In this document: in pieces, positions 18,001 to 54,000 of the stretch
Layout: each line of letters begins with the position of its first letter
Position numbering within the stretch: the first letter of the stretch is position 1
Source: Pecten maximus
Taxonomy: Eukaryota
Assembly: GCF_902652985.1 (NCBI RefSeq)
Contig: NC_047022.1
Coordinates: 16,120,001 to 16,184,000 of the forward strand
Length of the DNA: 64,000 nt
Direction of reading: 5' to 3'
Program-made: the position numbers

Positions 18001-21000
18001 CGCCGGATTTTGGGGATGTATAGTTGGCACAGCATGTGTTCAATGAAAAATATGTTTAGTTCTTTATAAACAACGGAAACATGATATTTTTTTTTCAAGA
18101 ATGGAGAAATAACTTAGAAAATTCTTCAAAGTGTATCATTACACAGGTCTACCTAAGCCAGCCAAAACAAGCATACACTCACCACACGCTCGCACACAAG
18201 GGAGACTGTTCTTACTGACCACAACTGAACAATTGGTAACCAGTCTGTAAAAGGATTCATGTACTCTTTCTGGGTTCTTATACTGCGGCCATATTTTTGT
18301 CCAATTCTGTTAAAGTAGTATCAATGATAATTAAAATAAATTAAAATTATCCTTATGATTTGATTTATTTATTGTAGACTAGTCACTACAACATCTGGAT
18401 TCCATTTTCCCCATTACCCAATTAATATACAATACAATATGCTTATAATTAGCATAGGGTGAGTGACCGCTAGTCTTTAACTGCTATACATGTGTTTCAT
18501 ATTGTTTTCAGCTGTACCACCGTAATCTTCCGGGAGAAATTATATCATGTTATTTATGTTAATTCATTTGATACATATGATACTAGATAATGTTTGTTTT
18601 TTCTTTTCTTTTTTAAATTAGATTTCATGAGACATCTTTCATCTATTATATATCTCAAAACATATTTGATGAATTATTTCATACATCTCACAAACTTTGT
18701 ATGATATGTGAACATGTGCTGTACAGAGGTTTTATATGAACATACTCGCTATCTGATAAATTAGTATGCACCTCATAAATAATTGAAGGTATGTTTTATA
18801 AACATACAGGCTATCTGATGGTAATCAATCAGATTTCATTAAATACATGAATGGCATTATCCCTTGAAAATATTTTCCCAAGTAAGACCAGTATTTTGAT
18901 GTAATATTTTATGCATTGATATGAAACATCTCAGATTCATTACCATACTTTAGTGCATATATGATACAGCAGTATCATAGTACACTTCAATTACCCCAGA
19001 CCTGACCCTCATTAAAAAATAGGCGCCCTCCCCCCCCCAAAAAAAAACAACCTAAACAAACAAACAAACAAAACAAATAACAAAGAAAAAACGTAGATAC
19101 GGAAGGAGGGAGCTAAAAAATCTAGAGATAGCTTTGTTTACCATAAATTCTCCTATCAATCTAAACAGATGTAATCAAACATGTTGTTTTATTACAGATA
19201 GATTGATGGACATGTTTAACTCCTTGATCATCAACACTGCATTAACTTTAGCAATATCTGTAGGGTAGGGTAGCATCATCTGTACTTAATGACTGTACGA
19301 GATTGATACAAGTTGTTAAAACATTTGGCATTATGGCTACGAACATAAATAATGATTTATTTATTTTTAATGACGAAATGGTGACTGATTGTAGATCTAT
19401 AAGATAAACAACGAATCATTTGATTGACAATTGCGTCACTGATGTGTTTACTAACGCCTTCATGCCGTTTAATGTTAGGTGTTGGCCTTTTTCGAAATCC
19501 ATATGCAAAAATAAACAAGATGAACTTCACATCCCTCATAAAATGAGCCACGTGACAATGCTCGTACATGTTGGGTCAAAGCACGGCCTGTAAACAATCG
19601 GTCTATCTACAAATAATAAATAGCGGTTTCTTTTAGCGCGTGTCTTAATAATCAACACTCATTAAGTCATAACGACCTTTACGTTTTTATATGACGTTGT
19701 TGTGTATGCTGTAACTAACAAACACTCCTGTTGATTAATGGAATCTCAGAATTATAAGGTATTTCTATGTTTTAGGATCGCTTTGCGCGCTAGGTGAGGG
19801 TGTCAGGCGTGTGGACATCTGATGACGGTAGCGACAGTAGGTTGTTACATTAAACCTCTAAATCGTGACAGCCCGCTTGCATATTAATTAGACAGAAAGT
19901 ATATATTTAATATTAATGAGAATTTGCTTAAGAAAGGTATATAATACTAACAGACCTTCTCCTATCGAAGCACGTGAATACAGAGAGCTCCACGGTCAGG
20001 TTGTATCAGAACACAGGGACATACATTTGGCAAAGATGACTTGACAGTTACAGAAAATTTAACGTTTCGGGAGCTTTTATTTTTCGTGAAGTATTCATGT
20101 GATCAGACATTTTATTAACAACAACAATGGGGAAAATTCACGTTCTACCAATCTTTATTTCTGTTCTGTACGTTTGGATTATACTCACACCTTCGTTATG
20201 CCAGGAAGGTAAGTTAAATTGACACGTTCGATAATACCATAATTGGCATATTAGTTACAAGATTTACTTACATATTCGGCCATTTATTGTGGCAGACCAT
20301 GATAATTGAATACAGAAATCAATTTTGTTGAAAGACTCGAAACATAGCGGAGGAAATATTTTACTTCGGGTTTAACAAAATCAAGTAATTTAGATTTAGA
20401 TTTCTATAATATATTTCTATGTAAACGTTTATAAATGTATTATTTTTACCATGATAATGATGTATGTATTAAATTTTGATATACATTTTATTAGATAGTA
20501 AATGATATATAGAAAATAGTCCTGGGAATACCCACCAATACTCATTCGTGTTGTGTATATGATGTCTGAGTAGAATCATTAATTAACGCATATGTTATAT
20601 GTAATTGCGCTTGTCACTGCAAATTAAAACATTGTGTTTCGTGCGTGTAGCCGAGTTCCTCGAATCCACTTTAAGATAATTTGATGATGCGCATTTGTGA
20701 ATAAACAGAAAATAAAATTTTCATGTCAGTCGTGTAAACATTTTTGAACTTTAAATAAGAAAAACTTGAAAATTGATAAAAACCGACGAAACCTAAATCA
20801 ATGATATCATAGCTTCTTCTACATCTGTCACCGAACTAGGTTATCAATAGCCACAATGTGGATTCAATTTCATGCGAACTTTCCATTCCTTGATAGTCAC
20901 AACCATACTTGCCAAGCCTACATTATTTGCATGTTATAGGTGTTGCGAATACCCAGACTTCACCCTAAATAACATTATCTCCGTTTAAATTGGTCATATT

Positions 21001-51000: not shown

Positions 51001-54000
51001 ACGTGCTGGTTGGCTAGCAGAAGCATTTGAGCAGAATCCTTCACATTTGATATTTTATTAAATTAATTTTTTATAGGATACAGAAAGAATAATTTATATA
51101 TTATCTTAGGCAATTTATATATTATAACGTCCCGTACTTTTTAAATCATGATTTCGTAGATATCCTTGTACGATGCCAGAATTTTCGAAACCTGTTCACA
51201 CGCTAATTGGTTCCATTGTCTTCACTTTAGTTCACATTTTTTCATATTTTGCCTCGTTTTGTCGATTTGGTCGAGTTGGAATCAGGGTTTCCTTTTGATG
51301 TCGGTATTCTCTGTTTTTGTTCTATAGGATGCCGAGCAGAGCTGTACGTCCCATTCGATGTTATGCCAATAGCCGATGGTGCCGGCACCAGCATTCCCAT
51401 TGGTAACAACGGTAACGTTGATTCTGTTGCCAATGCTGGACGATTTGACGGTAGTGGACGTCTAACTATCTGGATGTACTCAAACATGGATTTTGGCGAA
51501 CTGTTGACGATTAACCTGAGATTCTATGACTTTCCAGGAGGACAAGAAGAGCAAGTTTTAGTTTCGAATTGCTTTGACAAGGAACTTGGTTCCATTGAGA
51601 TTGCAACACGTCCGCGAAAGAAGGAAGTTGTATTCCGTGGTAACACGGCTCAATCTGGACCAGTAGAAATAGCTCTTCCTTATCAGGTCAGTTTATGTGT
51701 ATTTTCACTGGAATTTGAACCAATTTGTCAAGGCTGTTATAAGTCTCCATATGTATAGTAAAATGAAGCCCTTATTGACTAAGGATCAGTTGGATCAGAC
51801 AGCAACAACAAAGTTATATATGCTTTTCCTATTGTTCATGACCACGATTTATTCTGTTCTTAAATGCGCTATGTCTACATTATGTGATTACATAGCGAAC
51901 AGTTATTACATAAAACTCAACATTTATCATGCTATTTATTCATCATATTTTGTTATTGATTGATTGATTGATTGATTATTAGAATATCATTCCAGCAAAG
52001 TTAATTATATTTATGTCACGTTCAATTCAGATTTACATCTGCCACCTGTTTGGAATGTTTCTCGGCATGATTAAAAATTGCTAAAAAAAATATTTAAATA
52101 TAGATTAAAAATTCAATTTTAATGTTTGACTATGCTTCTACACTATTAATCGATCGATCATATAACGCCATTCATTTGATTATAAAACAAATTTCATTCA
52201 TACGCCATAAAATAATTAGTATCAAGATTAATTATCATTAAATGACGACAAGATCAAATGAAAATTTACTGACGCAATGAAAGAGATGCAAATGGGGGTA
52301 TTTTACCAATTAGATATTTCTTCCTTCAGGAGAAAATGTGGAAGAATGTGACGTATGCTTATGACGGGTCCACACTTACTGGAAAGGTTAATGGCGAAGA
52401 AAAATCTATTCCCCTCAGAGGTAGGTCAAATGGCAGAGGTCATGTCGTTCGTGTTTTAAAATTAGCACATGTATAAATCAATCAAGGGTTGCCATATCTG
52501 TATAACTGAGATATATACATGCCTTATTATGTGAATCTTAATTACCCTTCAAACACTGTAAATGATCACGTCAGATATTTAAACATGAACCGCTCCTGGT
52601 AAAATAATAAATCAACGTTTTCTCGGTTAAACGTTCATGATGTCGTTTTGAGTATTCCACGGTTCGTCGGTAAAGCTATAAATATTTGACCTTTTGTAGA
52701 AACTGACACATTTCATTGAAAAATATTGATATTTTTTGCTTTTGCTTCTAGGAAACCTCGATATCAGATTTAGTGGATTTGAAATCGGGATGTGCAACGG
52801 GCGCGGATATGTCGGCTATGTGGATGAGGTGAGTAATCTCAATGTTATATTCATTTTACTTTCTTTAACGCTGTTACTTTACTTCCAAACATATGTAAAC
52901 TCGGTATTTGATCACAACAGATGCATATATAATAGAAATATGGAAAAGAGCAATTTGCAAGAATGGAAAAATACATTTGGATGAACATCGAATATTTTTT
53001 CAAAATGTAAATAAAAACGGAAAGGAATCTGTCTTCCTTAGTGGAATAATCTTTTAAAAATATTTCTATTCATTTCAAAAATATTTTCAAATAAATAGAC
53101 AAGCAATGCGTAATCCATAGAACGTTTGTATGGTAATATGTATTTATATTTGTAATGTAAATAACGGATAATGCTTTCATAATTTAATACTGTACTTTAA
53201 GTTCATATATGCTTGTTAATTTGTGTATTTCATGTTTACTTTTTAAGGAGACAGCATACGATTTGCAATCTATTAAAATCTCTTTAATAAATAAACAGTT
53301 AGTTTAGTTATTTAATTTTCATACATTTTAATTTATTAATAATATTAAATATCTTTCTATTTATTAAACTATATATTTATTTATTTCAGTTGAGAGTATA
53401 CAGATGTGTGAATCACTTTGGACTAACAAGACCTAATAACAATTTTGGATTTACGAGACGAGTGATATAGTGAATTATTCATATTTAGAAAGTGTTTTAA
53501 TATTTTTGTCATGTTATTAATTGATAGTGAACATTCAAATTCCATAAAACGCTGTCATAGGTGTAGGCAGCAAGCGAAATTGCACCTGAAAGATGTACAT
53601 AAACAAAGAGAGTTTTGCTACGTGACATTTCACACCGATATTTGCTGTAGGTGACTCAATGAAATATGATATAATAATCTGACTTAAGATATGTTCTTTT
53701 GACGATAATAATTAACAGTGTGTCTTTATTACTGGAATTATCCGATAAACCGTCGAGATTATCTAATCATGTCAGTACTTATCCGATGGTCCTGATTCCC
53801 AGTTAGTGGTCAAAAGATCCGATTACTCTTTTATTATACAACATAGTCCCATATCCCCCAGTCTAATTTTTCAGCCAGTCTAGCAGAGGACGCCGAAGAC
53901 TGAATTATCGAGGGCTGCCCTGTTGGTGCAGAGGGTAGGGCGTATAAACATTTACGGTTAGACCTCTCAAATACCTTTTCCTCCTATGTTTATGTAGGTA

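What the first reader, a model, noticed from the sequence alone, without database searches (positions are those of the whole stretch)
20127..53470. Tandem pair of VWA-less Pif/BMSP-family genes with a shared LamG core and contrasting N-termini
Seen: two same-strand secreted genes 9.5 kb apart. Their LamG domains are split at homologous points (phases 1/0/1/0; exons 371/91/86/66 versus 359/91/77/81 nt), yet the proteins are highly diverged. Established: ChtBD2+LamG is the hallmark of Pif/BMSP/LamG3 shell-matrix proteins, and Pif and BMSP carry N-terminal VWA domains. Inference: an old duplication yielding a giant chitin-anchored glyco-scaffold (A) and a small partner with Arg-rich linkers (B), possibly a co-regulated two-component matrix system for shell or another chitinous structure.
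[Added by the scan's program, not by the reader: the finding's places include an assembly gap (unread letters, written N; its length is only estimated) at 46116 to 46265. Whether the letters on both sides are continuous or in frame is not known: test that first.]
Basis: partly seen in the sequence, partly recalled or inferred. Interest (0 to 1): 0.75.

Follow-up and report, generated by a model that had tools for sequence, protein, structure and literature searches.

The report
Two neighbouring scallop chitin-binding LamG3 genes
Two adjacent scallop genes encode secreted proteins that share a chitin-binding plus lectin-like end piece; they are ordinary members of the known "LamG3" branch of the Pif/BMSP shell-protein family, and one is already annotated.

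Summary
The window is Pecten maximus. Gene A (20127-36400, 9 exons) and gene B (45911-53470, 8 exons) lie on the + strand 9.5 kb apart.

- **Gap:** the assembly gap lies in intron 1 of gene B and removes no annotated coding sequence.
- **Shared core:** both genes end in a degenerate chitin-binding module followed by a concanavalin-like (Laminin_G_3) domain.
- **Family:** a profile of that core finds 828 proteins. They include proteins with VWA, CBM14 and the core, which is the Pif/BMSP architecture.
- **No VWA:** none of the 2062 open-frame pieces of the window matches a VWA model. Both genes therefore fit the published "LamG3" class (chitin-binding plus LG, no VWA).
- **Gene B:** it is NCBI's "shell matrix protein-like" (394 aa) and is conserved across bivalves.
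- **Gene A:** it encodes about 1590 aa, with 34 N-glycosylation sequons and proline runs ahead of a conserved 400-aa anchor. Orthologues occur in scallops and Mytilus, all "uncharacterized". In this assembly it carries a 1-nt frameshift.
- **Relationship:** A and B belong to separate old clades. A sister relationship is neither shown nor rejected (AU p 0.15).

Co-regulation, partnership and shell location in Pecten remain untested.

The parts
20127..20208 (+). Gene A exon 1: ATG and signal peptide (27 codons + 1 nt, phase 1 donor GTAAGT)
   Evidence: Sequence read. tblastn of Argopecten orthologue P0002 residues 1-27 gives 78% identity.
28436..31952 (+). Gene A exon 2, giant low-complexity exon (3517 nt). 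It holds an N/T/S-rich part with 34 N-x-S/T sequons, acidic DPF/GNPF motifs, P11, P7, P5 and P7 runs, and an S/P/T-rich part.
   Evidence: ORFs 28387-30018 and 29924-31996. Orthologue tblastn at 52-63% identity. Composition and sequons. Acceptor and donor read.
30001..30018 (+). Frameshift site in gene A exon 2 (C5 run 30001-30005, T4 run 30009-30012) followed by in-frame TAA at 30016-30018
   Evidence: The two orthologue HSPs abut at 30011/30012 in different frames. Sequence read. Exon length 3517 is 1 mod 3.
32476..32667 (+). Gene A CBM14 (peritrophin-A/ChtBD2) exon, phase 1-1
   Evidence: Pfam CBM_14 E 1.5e-6, 28.7 bits against cut-off 22.1. 88-89% identical to the orthologues.
33093..33329 (+). 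Gene A second Cys-rich module (9 Cys) plus short helix, phase 1-1
   Evidence: No Pfam hit at E<=0.01. 89-92% identical to the orthologues. Beta-strand module in the model of the Argopecten orthologue's C-terminal block, pLDDT about 94.
33554..33691 (+). Gene A third, degenerate CB-like module next to LG, phase 1-1. Homologous to gene B exon 4.
   Evidence: Core HMM positions 2-49, E 1.2e-11. No Pfam hit. Intron in the same alignment column as in B.
33810..34180 (+). Gene A LG exon 1 (371 nt)
   Evidence: (82% and 80% to the Ylistrum and Argopecten proteins).
34445..34535 (+). Gene A LG exon 2 (91 nt)
35944..36029 (+). Gene A LG exon 3 (86 nt)
36335..36400 (+). Gene A LG exon 4 (66 nt, TAA stop included)
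45911..46064 (+). Gene B exon 1: signal peptide and a basic stretch ending in RKR
   Evidence: Matches P0003 residues 1-51 exactly. Sequence read.
46116..46265 (.). Assembly gap (N), inside intron 1 of gene B. A 24-nt tandem repeat starts right after it (46271-46364).
46716..46865 (+). Gene B exon 2: first Cys module (weak CBM14), phase 1-1
   Evidence: Pfam CBM_14 at 19 bits and 20.4 bits in P0003, below the cut-off of 22.1. The Mytilus orthologues reach 23.4 and 23.5 bits. The family profile hits CBM14 chains in the PDB at E 6.6e-15 to 2.5e-8.
49697..49822 (+). Gene B exon 3: Pro/Arg/Thr-rich linker, phase 1-1
   Evidence: Matches P0003 residues 103-143. Model pLDDT below 50 over residues 108-120.
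50348..50494 (+). Gene B exon 4: degenerate CB-like module next to LG, phase 1-1
   Evidence: Core HMM positions 2-50, E 4e-19. No Pfam hit.
51328..51686 (+). Gene B LG exon 1 (359 nt)
   Evidence: (100% to P0003).
52330..52420 (+). Gene B LG exon 2 (91 nt)
52752..52828 (+). Gene B LG exon 3 (77 nt)
53390..53470 (+). Gene B LG exon 4 (81 nt, TAG stop included)

Best explanation
These are two paralogous, secreted, VWA-less members of the Pif/BMSP/LamG3 superfamily in Pecten maximus. They are best filed as LamG3-type proteins.

Shown: each has a signal peptide, cysteine-rich chitin-binding (CBM14-type) modules, and a C-terminal cassette made of one degenerate CB-like module followed by a concanavalin-A-like (Laminin_G_3) beta-sandwich.

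Gene B (394 aa) is the scallop orthologue of a small protein conserved across bivalves and annotated 'shell matrix protein-like'. Gene A (about 1590 aa) places a fast-evolving, heavily N-glycosylatable, Ser/Thr/Pro-rich disordered region ahead of a conserved block of about 400 aa (three CB-type modules plus LG). It has orthologues in scallops and mussels.

Inferred mechanism: the CB modules tether the proteins to chitin in an extracellular matrix, most likely the shell or periostracal matrix laid down by the mantle. The LG domain offers a lectin-like or protein-binding face. A's disordered glycosylated region acts as a hydrated spacer or gel. The two genes stem from an old duplication inside the family, older than the split of the bivalve lineages represented in each clade. 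They are not a recent tandem copy.
For: Identity and gene models. P0003 is 100% identical to B's LG exon 1 and is named 'shell matrix protein-like [Pecten maximus]'.

B orthologues occur in Mytilus, Sinanodonta and Dreissena at 54-71% identity over LG exon 1. A orthologues occur in Ylistrum and Argopecten at 80-82% and in three Mytilus species at 42-43% over the last 400 aa.

Superfamily:
- The profile of alignment A1 finds 828 proteins at E<=1e-3 and 275 at E<=1e-10.
- The core ends within 35 aa of the C-terminus in 111 of 116 rows with a near-full core.
- 5 of the 9 long hits scanned carry Pfam VWA, and 4 of those 5 also carry CBM_14.
- My own VWA model finds VWA in 24 of 159 stored proteins.

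No VWA in the window: 0 of 2062 ORF pieces score better than E 3.1.

LG fold:
- Pfam Laminin_G_3 is listed in 7 of 8 B-family proteins and is above the cut-off in 2 of 8.
- The AF2 models have mean pLDDT 82.7 (B) and 90.2 (Argopecten A C-terminal block).
- For both models every listed Foldseek match has probability 1.00, and the listed matches are lectin-like jelly-roll domains.
- The Atlas nearest clusters all carry PF13385, at score 0.90, which is a lead only.

Chitin-binding modules: A exon at 28.7 bits. The family profiles hit CBM14 chains of chitinases, a squid beak chitin-binding protein and tachycitin.

Clades: B clade of 11 rows at 100/99; A narrow clade of 4 rows at 98/93.

The LamG3 class and Pif/LamG3 gene clusters formed by tandem duplication are published (PMC10543319, passages read).
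Against: - No expression, proteome or localisation data for either Pecten gene were available here, so the shell role is inferred.
- PMC10543319 notes that many Pif/LamG3 genes are not highly expressed in the mantle.
- I could not verify that the Mizuhopecten protein hit by the Perna unigene is B's orthologue.
- Pfam finds no LamG in A's two orthologues at E<=0.1, and B's own score is 20.3 bits against a cut-off of 27.6.
- The CB-like modules next to LG have no Pfam hit.
- Gene A is frameshifted in this assembly, so it may not encode a full protein in this animal.
- No P. maximus protein holding A's LG exon was found among proteins of 217-2919 aa.
- Deep branches of the family tree are unresolved.
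- The VWA-bearing neighbours carry no names, so 'Pif/BMSP-type' rests on architecture alone.
- VWA-less rows may include truncated gene models.
Confidence: 0.6

Rival explanations
1. Same proteins, different place of action. One or both, especially the mucin-like gene A, work in a non-shell chitinous or mucous matrix such as gut lining, gill supports or mucus. In that case they would act as a peritrophin/mucin-type barrier protein rather than as shell matrix proteins.
For: A's build is a CBM14 module plus a long glycosylatable Ser/Thr/Pro-rich region. From my own knowledge this resembles invertebrate intestinal mucins/peritrophins. PMC10543319 states that many Pif/LamG3 genes are not mantle-enriched and that the ancestral role may be unrelated to biomineralisation. 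All named A relatives are 'uncharacterized' or 'chitin-binding type-2 domain-containing'. The best PDB match of the family profile is a molluscan-type multi-CBM14 '25 kDa polyphenol-binding protein'. That shows such modules need not bind chitin.
Against: B's family name and the Perna nacre hit point to shell. LamG3-type proteins with ChtBD2 and LamG are listed in shell proteomes (PMC6641155; PMC10543319).
Confidence: 0.25
2. Gene A is a recently inactivated pseudogene in Pecten maximus. The 1-nt insertion near 30001-30013 is real and truncates the protein after about 550 residues, before the chitin-binding and LG parts.
For: The frame change and TAA at 30016-30018. No P. maximus protein containing A's LG exon appears among database proteins of 217-2919 aa, although B's does.
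Against: It is a single lesion and lies in or next to homopolymer runs (C5, T4), which from my own knowledge are typical sites of long-read assembly error. Downstream, 1942 nt of exon 2 and all seven further exons stay open with intact splice sites, and are 88-100% identical to the orthologues at the protein level. Proteins shorter than 217 aa were not searched.
Confidence: 0.15
3. A and B are a co-regulated pair that act together physically, with the small B as a partner or adaptor of the giant A on chitin, and their adjacency is preserved for that reason.
For: Same strand, 9.5 kb apart, shared cassette. A sister relationship of the two clades is not rejected (AU p 0.15).
Against: Nothing here tests co-expression, binding or conserved synteny. 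The best tree does not place A and B together. Adjacent paralogues are the normal outcome of tandem duplication, which is already described for Pif/LamG3 genes (PMC10543319).
Confidence: 0.1

Closest known systems
LamG3 proteins, sensu Bai et al. 2023 (PMC10543319): chitin-binding + concanavalin-like LG, no VWA. Also the 'LamG3' clade of Setiamarga and co-workers (PMC9635652).
   Same: Signal peptide, CB module(s), C-terminal LG and no VWA. Found in bivalves including a scallop genome in that survey. They arise by duplication and domain loss inside Pif/LamG3 gene clusters, and some are shell matrix proteins.
   Different: A has an unusually long N-glycan-rich disordered region of about 1170 aa. 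PMC9635652 reports that the first 'LamG3' described by Marie et al. 2017 had one VWA, so the name is used in two ways.
Pif (Pinctada fucata Pif177, cleaved to Pif97 and Pif80) and Pif-like VWA-CB-LG proteins
   Same: The CB module(s) followed by the LG-type C-terminal cassette are homologous. VWA+CBM14+core proteins are hit by the A/B profile at E 1e-33 to 1e-47.
   Different: No VWA domain in either gene or anywhere in the window. No Pif80-like acidic/basic aragonite-binding region after LG, since the cassette ends the protein.
BMSP (blue mussel shell protein)
   Same: CB plus LG C-terminal part. One 3-VWA protein (P0050) and another (P0073) are among the profile hits.
   Different: BMSP is defined by three or four VWA domains (PMC7747718, PMC9635652). 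A and B have none.
'Shell matrix protein-like' proteins of bivalves (NCBI naming); B's own orthologue group
   Same: Gene B is this protein in P. maximus, 100% identical over the exon tested and in every full codon of the 8 exons.
   Different: Nothing for B. Gene A is a different, much longer paralogue.

Membership tests
Pif/BMSP (VWA-CB-LG shell matrix proteins) | One (Pif) or several (BMSP) von Willebrand factor A domains | tested here: not met
   A VWA model built from Pfam-defined VWA segments of family members finds VWA in 24 of 159 stored proteins. It finds none in the 2062 window ORF pieces of >=20 aa (best E 3.1). Both genes start with a signal-peptide exon.
Pif/BMSP (VWA-CB-LG shell matrix proteins) | Chitin-binding peritrophin-A (CBM14/ChtBD2) domain | tested here: met
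   A: Pfam CBM_14 at 28.7 bits against 22.1. B: 19-20.4 bits, below the cut-off, while two Mytilus orthologues are above it (23.4 and 23.5). The family profile hits solved CBM14 chains at E 2.5e-8 and better.
Pif/BMSP (VWA-CB-LG shell matrix proteins) | LG (laminin G / concanavalin-like) region downstream of the CB domains, homologous to that of VWA-bearing members | tested here: met
   The A/B core profile retrieves VWA+CBM14 proteins with the match at their C-termini. In the trees, VWA-bearing clades are interleaved with VWA-less ones.
Pif sensu stricto | Post-LG low-complexity Asp/Lys/Arg-rich Pif80 part, and cleavage of the precursor into two proteins | tested here: not met
   In A and B the LG cassette ends 12-18 residues before the stop, so no such region follows. 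Cleavage is not testable here.
LamG3 (CB + LG, no VWA; PMC10543319) | Signal peptide, at least one CB domain, a concanavalin-like LG domain, absence of VWA | tested here: met
   The signal peptides are judged from the sequence and from the N-terminal helix of the model, not from a dedicated predictor.
LamG3 (published clade) | Grouping with named LamG3 sequences in a phylogeny | not testable with these tools
Laminin_G_3 / concanavalin A-like lectin fold (PF13385) | Profile match above the curated threshold | tested here: inconclusive
   B scores 20.3 bits against 27.6. Orthologues P0008 (29.6) and P0009 (30.6) pass. A's two orthologues have no hit at E<=0.1. No single exon of the window has a hit.
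Laminin_G_3 / concanavalin A-like lectin fold (PF13385) | Jelly-roll beta-sandwich fold | tested here: met
   The AF2 models have LG-part pLDDT mostly above 90. Foldseek against the PDB gives probability 1.00 and E 3e-9 to 5e-8 over 190-259 aligned columns in the single-domain matches. The matches are lectin-like jelly rolls: the N-terminal half of clostridial neurotoxin receptor-binding domains, the trans-sialidase lectin domain, a GH43 accessory domain and NEL. This is shared fold only, at 9-15% identity.
Shell matrix protein (found in shell) | Peptides identified in a shell extract | not tested
   There is only an indirect link for B's family through the Perna viridis nacre table (PMC6641155). 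The Pecten shell proteome lists are in supplements that I could not open.

The most novel reading that the evidence does not exclude
The adjacency of a giant glycan-rich LamG3 (A-type) and a small LamG3 (B-type) is an ancient, conserved two-gene module of pteriomorph bivalves, and the products act together on chitin as scaffold plus adaptor. In that reading the A-type proteins form a distinct, so far unnamed subfamily: a hypervariable mucin-like head on a conserved anchor of three CB-type modules plus LG.
Probability: 0.1. Interest if true: 0.55.

Novelty: new member of a known kind. Interest (0 to 1): 0.25.

Why it matters
The practical gains are modest.

- It gives a clean exon-level model of an unannotated, or at least database-absent, Pecten maximus gene (A).
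- It flags a probable assembly frameshift in that gene.
- It shows that the assembly gap does not touch gene B's coding sequence.

For shell biology, it adds a scallop example of two old LamG3-type paralogues lying side by side. The five intron positions around the CB-like and LG cassette match: four fall in the same alignment column and one in the adjacent column. This could serve as a marker when tracing how Pif, BMSP and LamG3 genes arose by duplication and VWA loss. It does not open a new kind of system.

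Tried and rejected
- **Pfam on single exons.** It found no LamG in any of 10 ORF translations, so the LG claim had to be tested through database proteins, structure prediction and fold search.
- **Chance resemblance of A and B.** Rejected.
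- **A short intron in place of the frameshift in exon 2.** Rejected. The orthologue alignments run on without a break and the two HSPs abut at 30011/30012.
- **A hidden VWA exon in the 8.2-kb first intron of A, between the genes or elsewhere in the window.** None was found.
- **A and B as exclusive sister groups.** Not seen in the best trees but not rejected either: AU p 0.15, log-likelihood difference 11.5. The two sets were defined after the first tree had been seen, which weakens that test.
- **Rows in the trees.** The quick tree used 116 of the 158 proteins with a core hit; 42 with a partial core were left out. The careful tree used 53 rows: the half of the first tree that holds A and B, minus three long-branch rows (P0053, P0139, P0145) and some near-duplicates, plus 7 VWA-clade rows as outgroup. 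Only the best 150 of the 828 profile hits were available.
- **Complex prediction.** Not used. I do not claim that A and B bind, and neighbourhood alone is no reason to test it.
- **Atlas searches.** They gave only Laminin_G_3 clusters at score 0.90, which is a lead and not evidence.
- **Literature on Pecten.** The passages read in PMC8382897 and PMC5854119 name neither gene. I make no claim that gene A's family is absent from print; searches were not by accession.
- **Not checked.** Synteny in other molluscs, because no eukaryotic genome collection is on hand (genome contigs holds bacteria and archaea only and was not used). Expression and shell-proteome peptides. The closed collections metagenome contigs and viral contigs. 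Supplements of PMC10543319, PMC5854119 and PMC11291548, which may list the scallop LamG3 genes and the Pecten shell proteins.
- **Joined step.** I never joined the window's exons into a spliced protein for any search or fold. Exons were searched one by one. Whole proteins came from the databases (P0003 for B; P0001 and P0002 as stand-ins for A).

Full report
**What is there**

The window is Pecten maximus. The 119-residue translation of gene B's first LG exon is 100% identical to a 394-aa NCBI protein named 'shell matrix protein-like [Pecten maximus]' (P0003).

I read the splice sites directly from the sequence.

Gene A runs from the ATG at 20127 to the TAA at 36398-36400 in nine exons. Gene B runs from the ATG at 45911 to the TAG at 53468-53470 in eight exons. 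The LG exons are 371/91/86/66 nt in A and 359/91/77/81 nt in B. Intron phases are 1/0/1/0 in both. The genes are on the same strand, with 9510 nt between A's stop and B's start.

For B, the full codons of the eight exons match P0003 everywhere except the split codons. All introns are GT-AG, and the CDS is 1185 nt, which is 394 codons plus the stop.

Exons were searched one by one, and whole proteins were taken from the databases.

**The gap**

The N run at 46116-46265 lies in intron 1 of gene B (46065-46715). It starts 51 nt after exon 1 and ends 450 nt before exon 2.

The annotated protein needs nothing from it. In the Mytilus, Sinanodonta and Dreissena orthologues the signal peptide runs straight into the first cysteine module.

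A 24-nt tandem repeat starts five bases after the gap (46271-46364). The assembly probably broke in a repeat array.

Gene A's second exon (28436-31952) is 3517 nt, one base too many for an exon that begins and ends in phase 1.

The two halves are open in different frames (28387-30018 and 29924-31996). The alignments to the Ylistrum and Argopecten orthologues pass from one frame to the other at 30011/30012 without losing residues. In the first frame a TAA follows at 30016-30018.

The site holds a C5 run and a T4 run. It is the only lesion. The remaining 1942 nt of the exon and all seven downstream exons are open, correctly spliced and 88-100% identical to the orthologues.

I rate an assembly error as more likely than a real inactivating mutation, but I cannot decide this here. 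It may explain why no P. maximus protein containing A's LG exon turned up among proteins of 217-2919 aa.

**Homology of A and B**

- LG exon 1 of A and B align at 38/126 identities, E 2e-15.
- LG exon 2 aligns at 9/27 identities, E 2e-6.
It also includes the cysteine module just upstream of LG: A 33554-33691 and B 50348-50494, each a single phase 1-1 exon.
- In the alignment of B with A's Argopecten orthologue, the three LG-internal introns fall in the same column and phase. The intron ahead of the CB-like exon falls in the same column. The one ahead of LG exon 1 falls in the adjacent column next to an alignment gap.

**Domains**

*CBM14*
- Pfam calls CBM_14 above threshold only in A's exon 32476-32667 (28.7 bits against 22.1).
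- B's first module scores 19-20.4 bits, and two Mytilus orthologues pass.
- The modules next to LG, and A's middle nine-Cys module, have no Pfam hit at E<=0.01.
- Family profiles hit solved CBM14 chains: a '25 kDa polyphenol-binding protein', chitinase CBM14s, a squid beak chitin-binding protein, Avr4 and tachycitin. E-values go down to 6.6e-15.

*LG*
- Pfam Laminin_G_3 is listed in 7 of 8 B-family proteins but is above its cut-off in only 2.
- It is absent at E<=0.1 from both A orthologues.
- I therefore predicted structures. B, with a 50-row family alignment, has mean pLDDT 82.7, with the LG part mostly above 90. The last 393 residues of the Argopecten A orthologue, with a 40-row alignment, have mean pLDDT 90.2.
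- Both models match the same set of solved lectin-like jelly rolls at Foldseek probability 1.00: the N-terminal half of clostridial neurotoxin receptor-binding domains, the lectin domain of trans-sialidases, a GH43 accessory domain and NEL.
- That is the concanavalin-like fold shared at 9-15% identity. It says nothing about toxicity.

**The family**

A profile of ten sequences (the B family plus A's two orthologues, alignment A1) found 828 proteins at E<=1e-3, 275 at E<=1e-10 and 51 at E<=1e-30 in the 50%-identity representative library.

In 111 of the 116 hits with a near-full core, the cassette ends within 35 residues of the C-terminus.

Of nine long hits scanned with Pfam, five carry VWA (one of them three VWA domains) and five carry CBM_14. 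A VWA model that I built from those segments finds VWA in 24 of 159 stored proteins. It finds none in the 2062 open-frame pieces of the window (best E 3.1).

So A and B belong to the same superfamily as VWA-CB-LG proteins, which is the Pif/BMSP architecture as described in PMC7747718 and PMC11291548 (passages read). Both lack VWA. CB plus LG without VWA is what Bai et al. 2023 call LamG3. They also describe Pif/LamG3 gene clusters formed by tandem duplication and VWA loss (PMC10543319, passages; PMC9635652).

**Phylogeny of the core**

- In a quick tree of 116 rows, A and B fell in one weakly supported, entirely VWA-less group of 38 rows (SH-aLRT 85) but in different subclades.
- In a careful tree of 53 rows, B's clade of 11 rows has 100/99 support. 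A's narrow clade (Ylistrum, Argopecten, Mytilus californianus P0023 and unnamed P0019) has 98/93. A wider A clade of 7 rows has 95/77.
- Deeper nodes collapse, with VWA-bearing clades among them.
- Forcing A and B together costs 11.5 log-likelihood units, with AU p 0.15. The sets were chosen after seeing the first tree.
- The duplication that separated A from B is therefore old, at least as old as the bivalve lineages inside each clade. Whether the two are direct sister paralogues is open.

**Gene A's body**

Exon 2 encodes about 1170 residues. The first 220 hold 34 N-x-S/T sequons. The first part is 14.8% Asn, 13.7% Thr and 12.4% Ser. It is followed by acidic DPF/GNPF motifs, a run of 11 prolines and three more proline runs, a 7-residue repeat (29779-29864) and a Ser/Pro/Thr-rich part.

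This region is only 52-63% identical to the scallop orthologues, against 80-100% for the CB and LG exons. The Mytilus relatives keep only the last 400 residues or so (42-43% identity).

**Function**

*Shown:* secreted-type N-termini, chitin-binding-type modules, a lectin-like C-terminal domain, a glycosylatable disordered region in A, and conservation of B across bivalves.

*Inferred:* tethering to chitin in the matrix made by the mantle. B's family has the better case. It carries the NCBI name, and a Perna viridis nacre protein has as its best hit a scallop 'shell matrix protein-like' protein (PMC6641155). I could not verify that this protein is B's orthologue.

A non-shell, mucin/peritrophin-like role is a serious rival for A. 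Nothing here bears on co-regulation or on binding between A and B.

**Verdict**

However, this is a pair of ordinary LamG3-type genes of a described class. One is already annotated, and the other has annotated but uncharacterised orthologues and probably carries an assembly frameshift.

Noticed in passing
window 30001-30018: One extra base in gene A's giant exon, in or next to a C5 and a T4 run, shifts the frame and brings a TAA into frame. Probably an assembly error, possibly a real truncating allele.
   Followed up: partly
window 46271-46364: A 24-nt tandem repeat (4 copies) starts five bases after the assembly gap, so the gap probably sits in a repeat array inside intron 1 of gene B.
   Followed up: partly
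window 1045-2089: Minisatellite of 54 copies of a 20-nt G-rich unit. It explains the high GC content and GC skew of the first 2 kb and the long ORFs in all three minus-strand frames.
   Followed up: no
window 59178-61247 (+): A 689-aa open frame with a reverse transcriptase domain (RVT_1, E 2.6e-29). It is a retroelement copy downstream of gene B.
   Followed up: partly
window 29779-29864: A 21-nt (7-residue, Asn/Pro-rich) repeat, 4.1 copies, inside gene A exon 2.
   Followed up: no
window 46050-46064 (end of gene B exon 1): B's mature N-terminus has a basic stretch of about 29 residues ending in Arg-Lys-Arg just before the first Cys module. The Mytilus, Sinanodonta and Dreissena orthologues lack it. 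It might be a propeptide cleavage site; this is speculation.
   Followed up: no
alignments A2 and A3 (family profiles): The best solved-structure match of the family's CB modules is a multi-CBM14 '25 kDa polyphenol-binding protein' (8in3; E 6.6e-15 and 4.5e-11). It is a reminder that such modules can bind ligands other than chitin.
   Followed up: no
profile hits P0039, P0058, P0065, P0066, P0076, P0118: A well-supported clade of very long (about 1600-2370 aa) VWA-less proteins carries the same C-terminal cassette. Giant VWA-less forms are therefore not unique to gene A's lineage. Their species are unknown.
   Followed up: no
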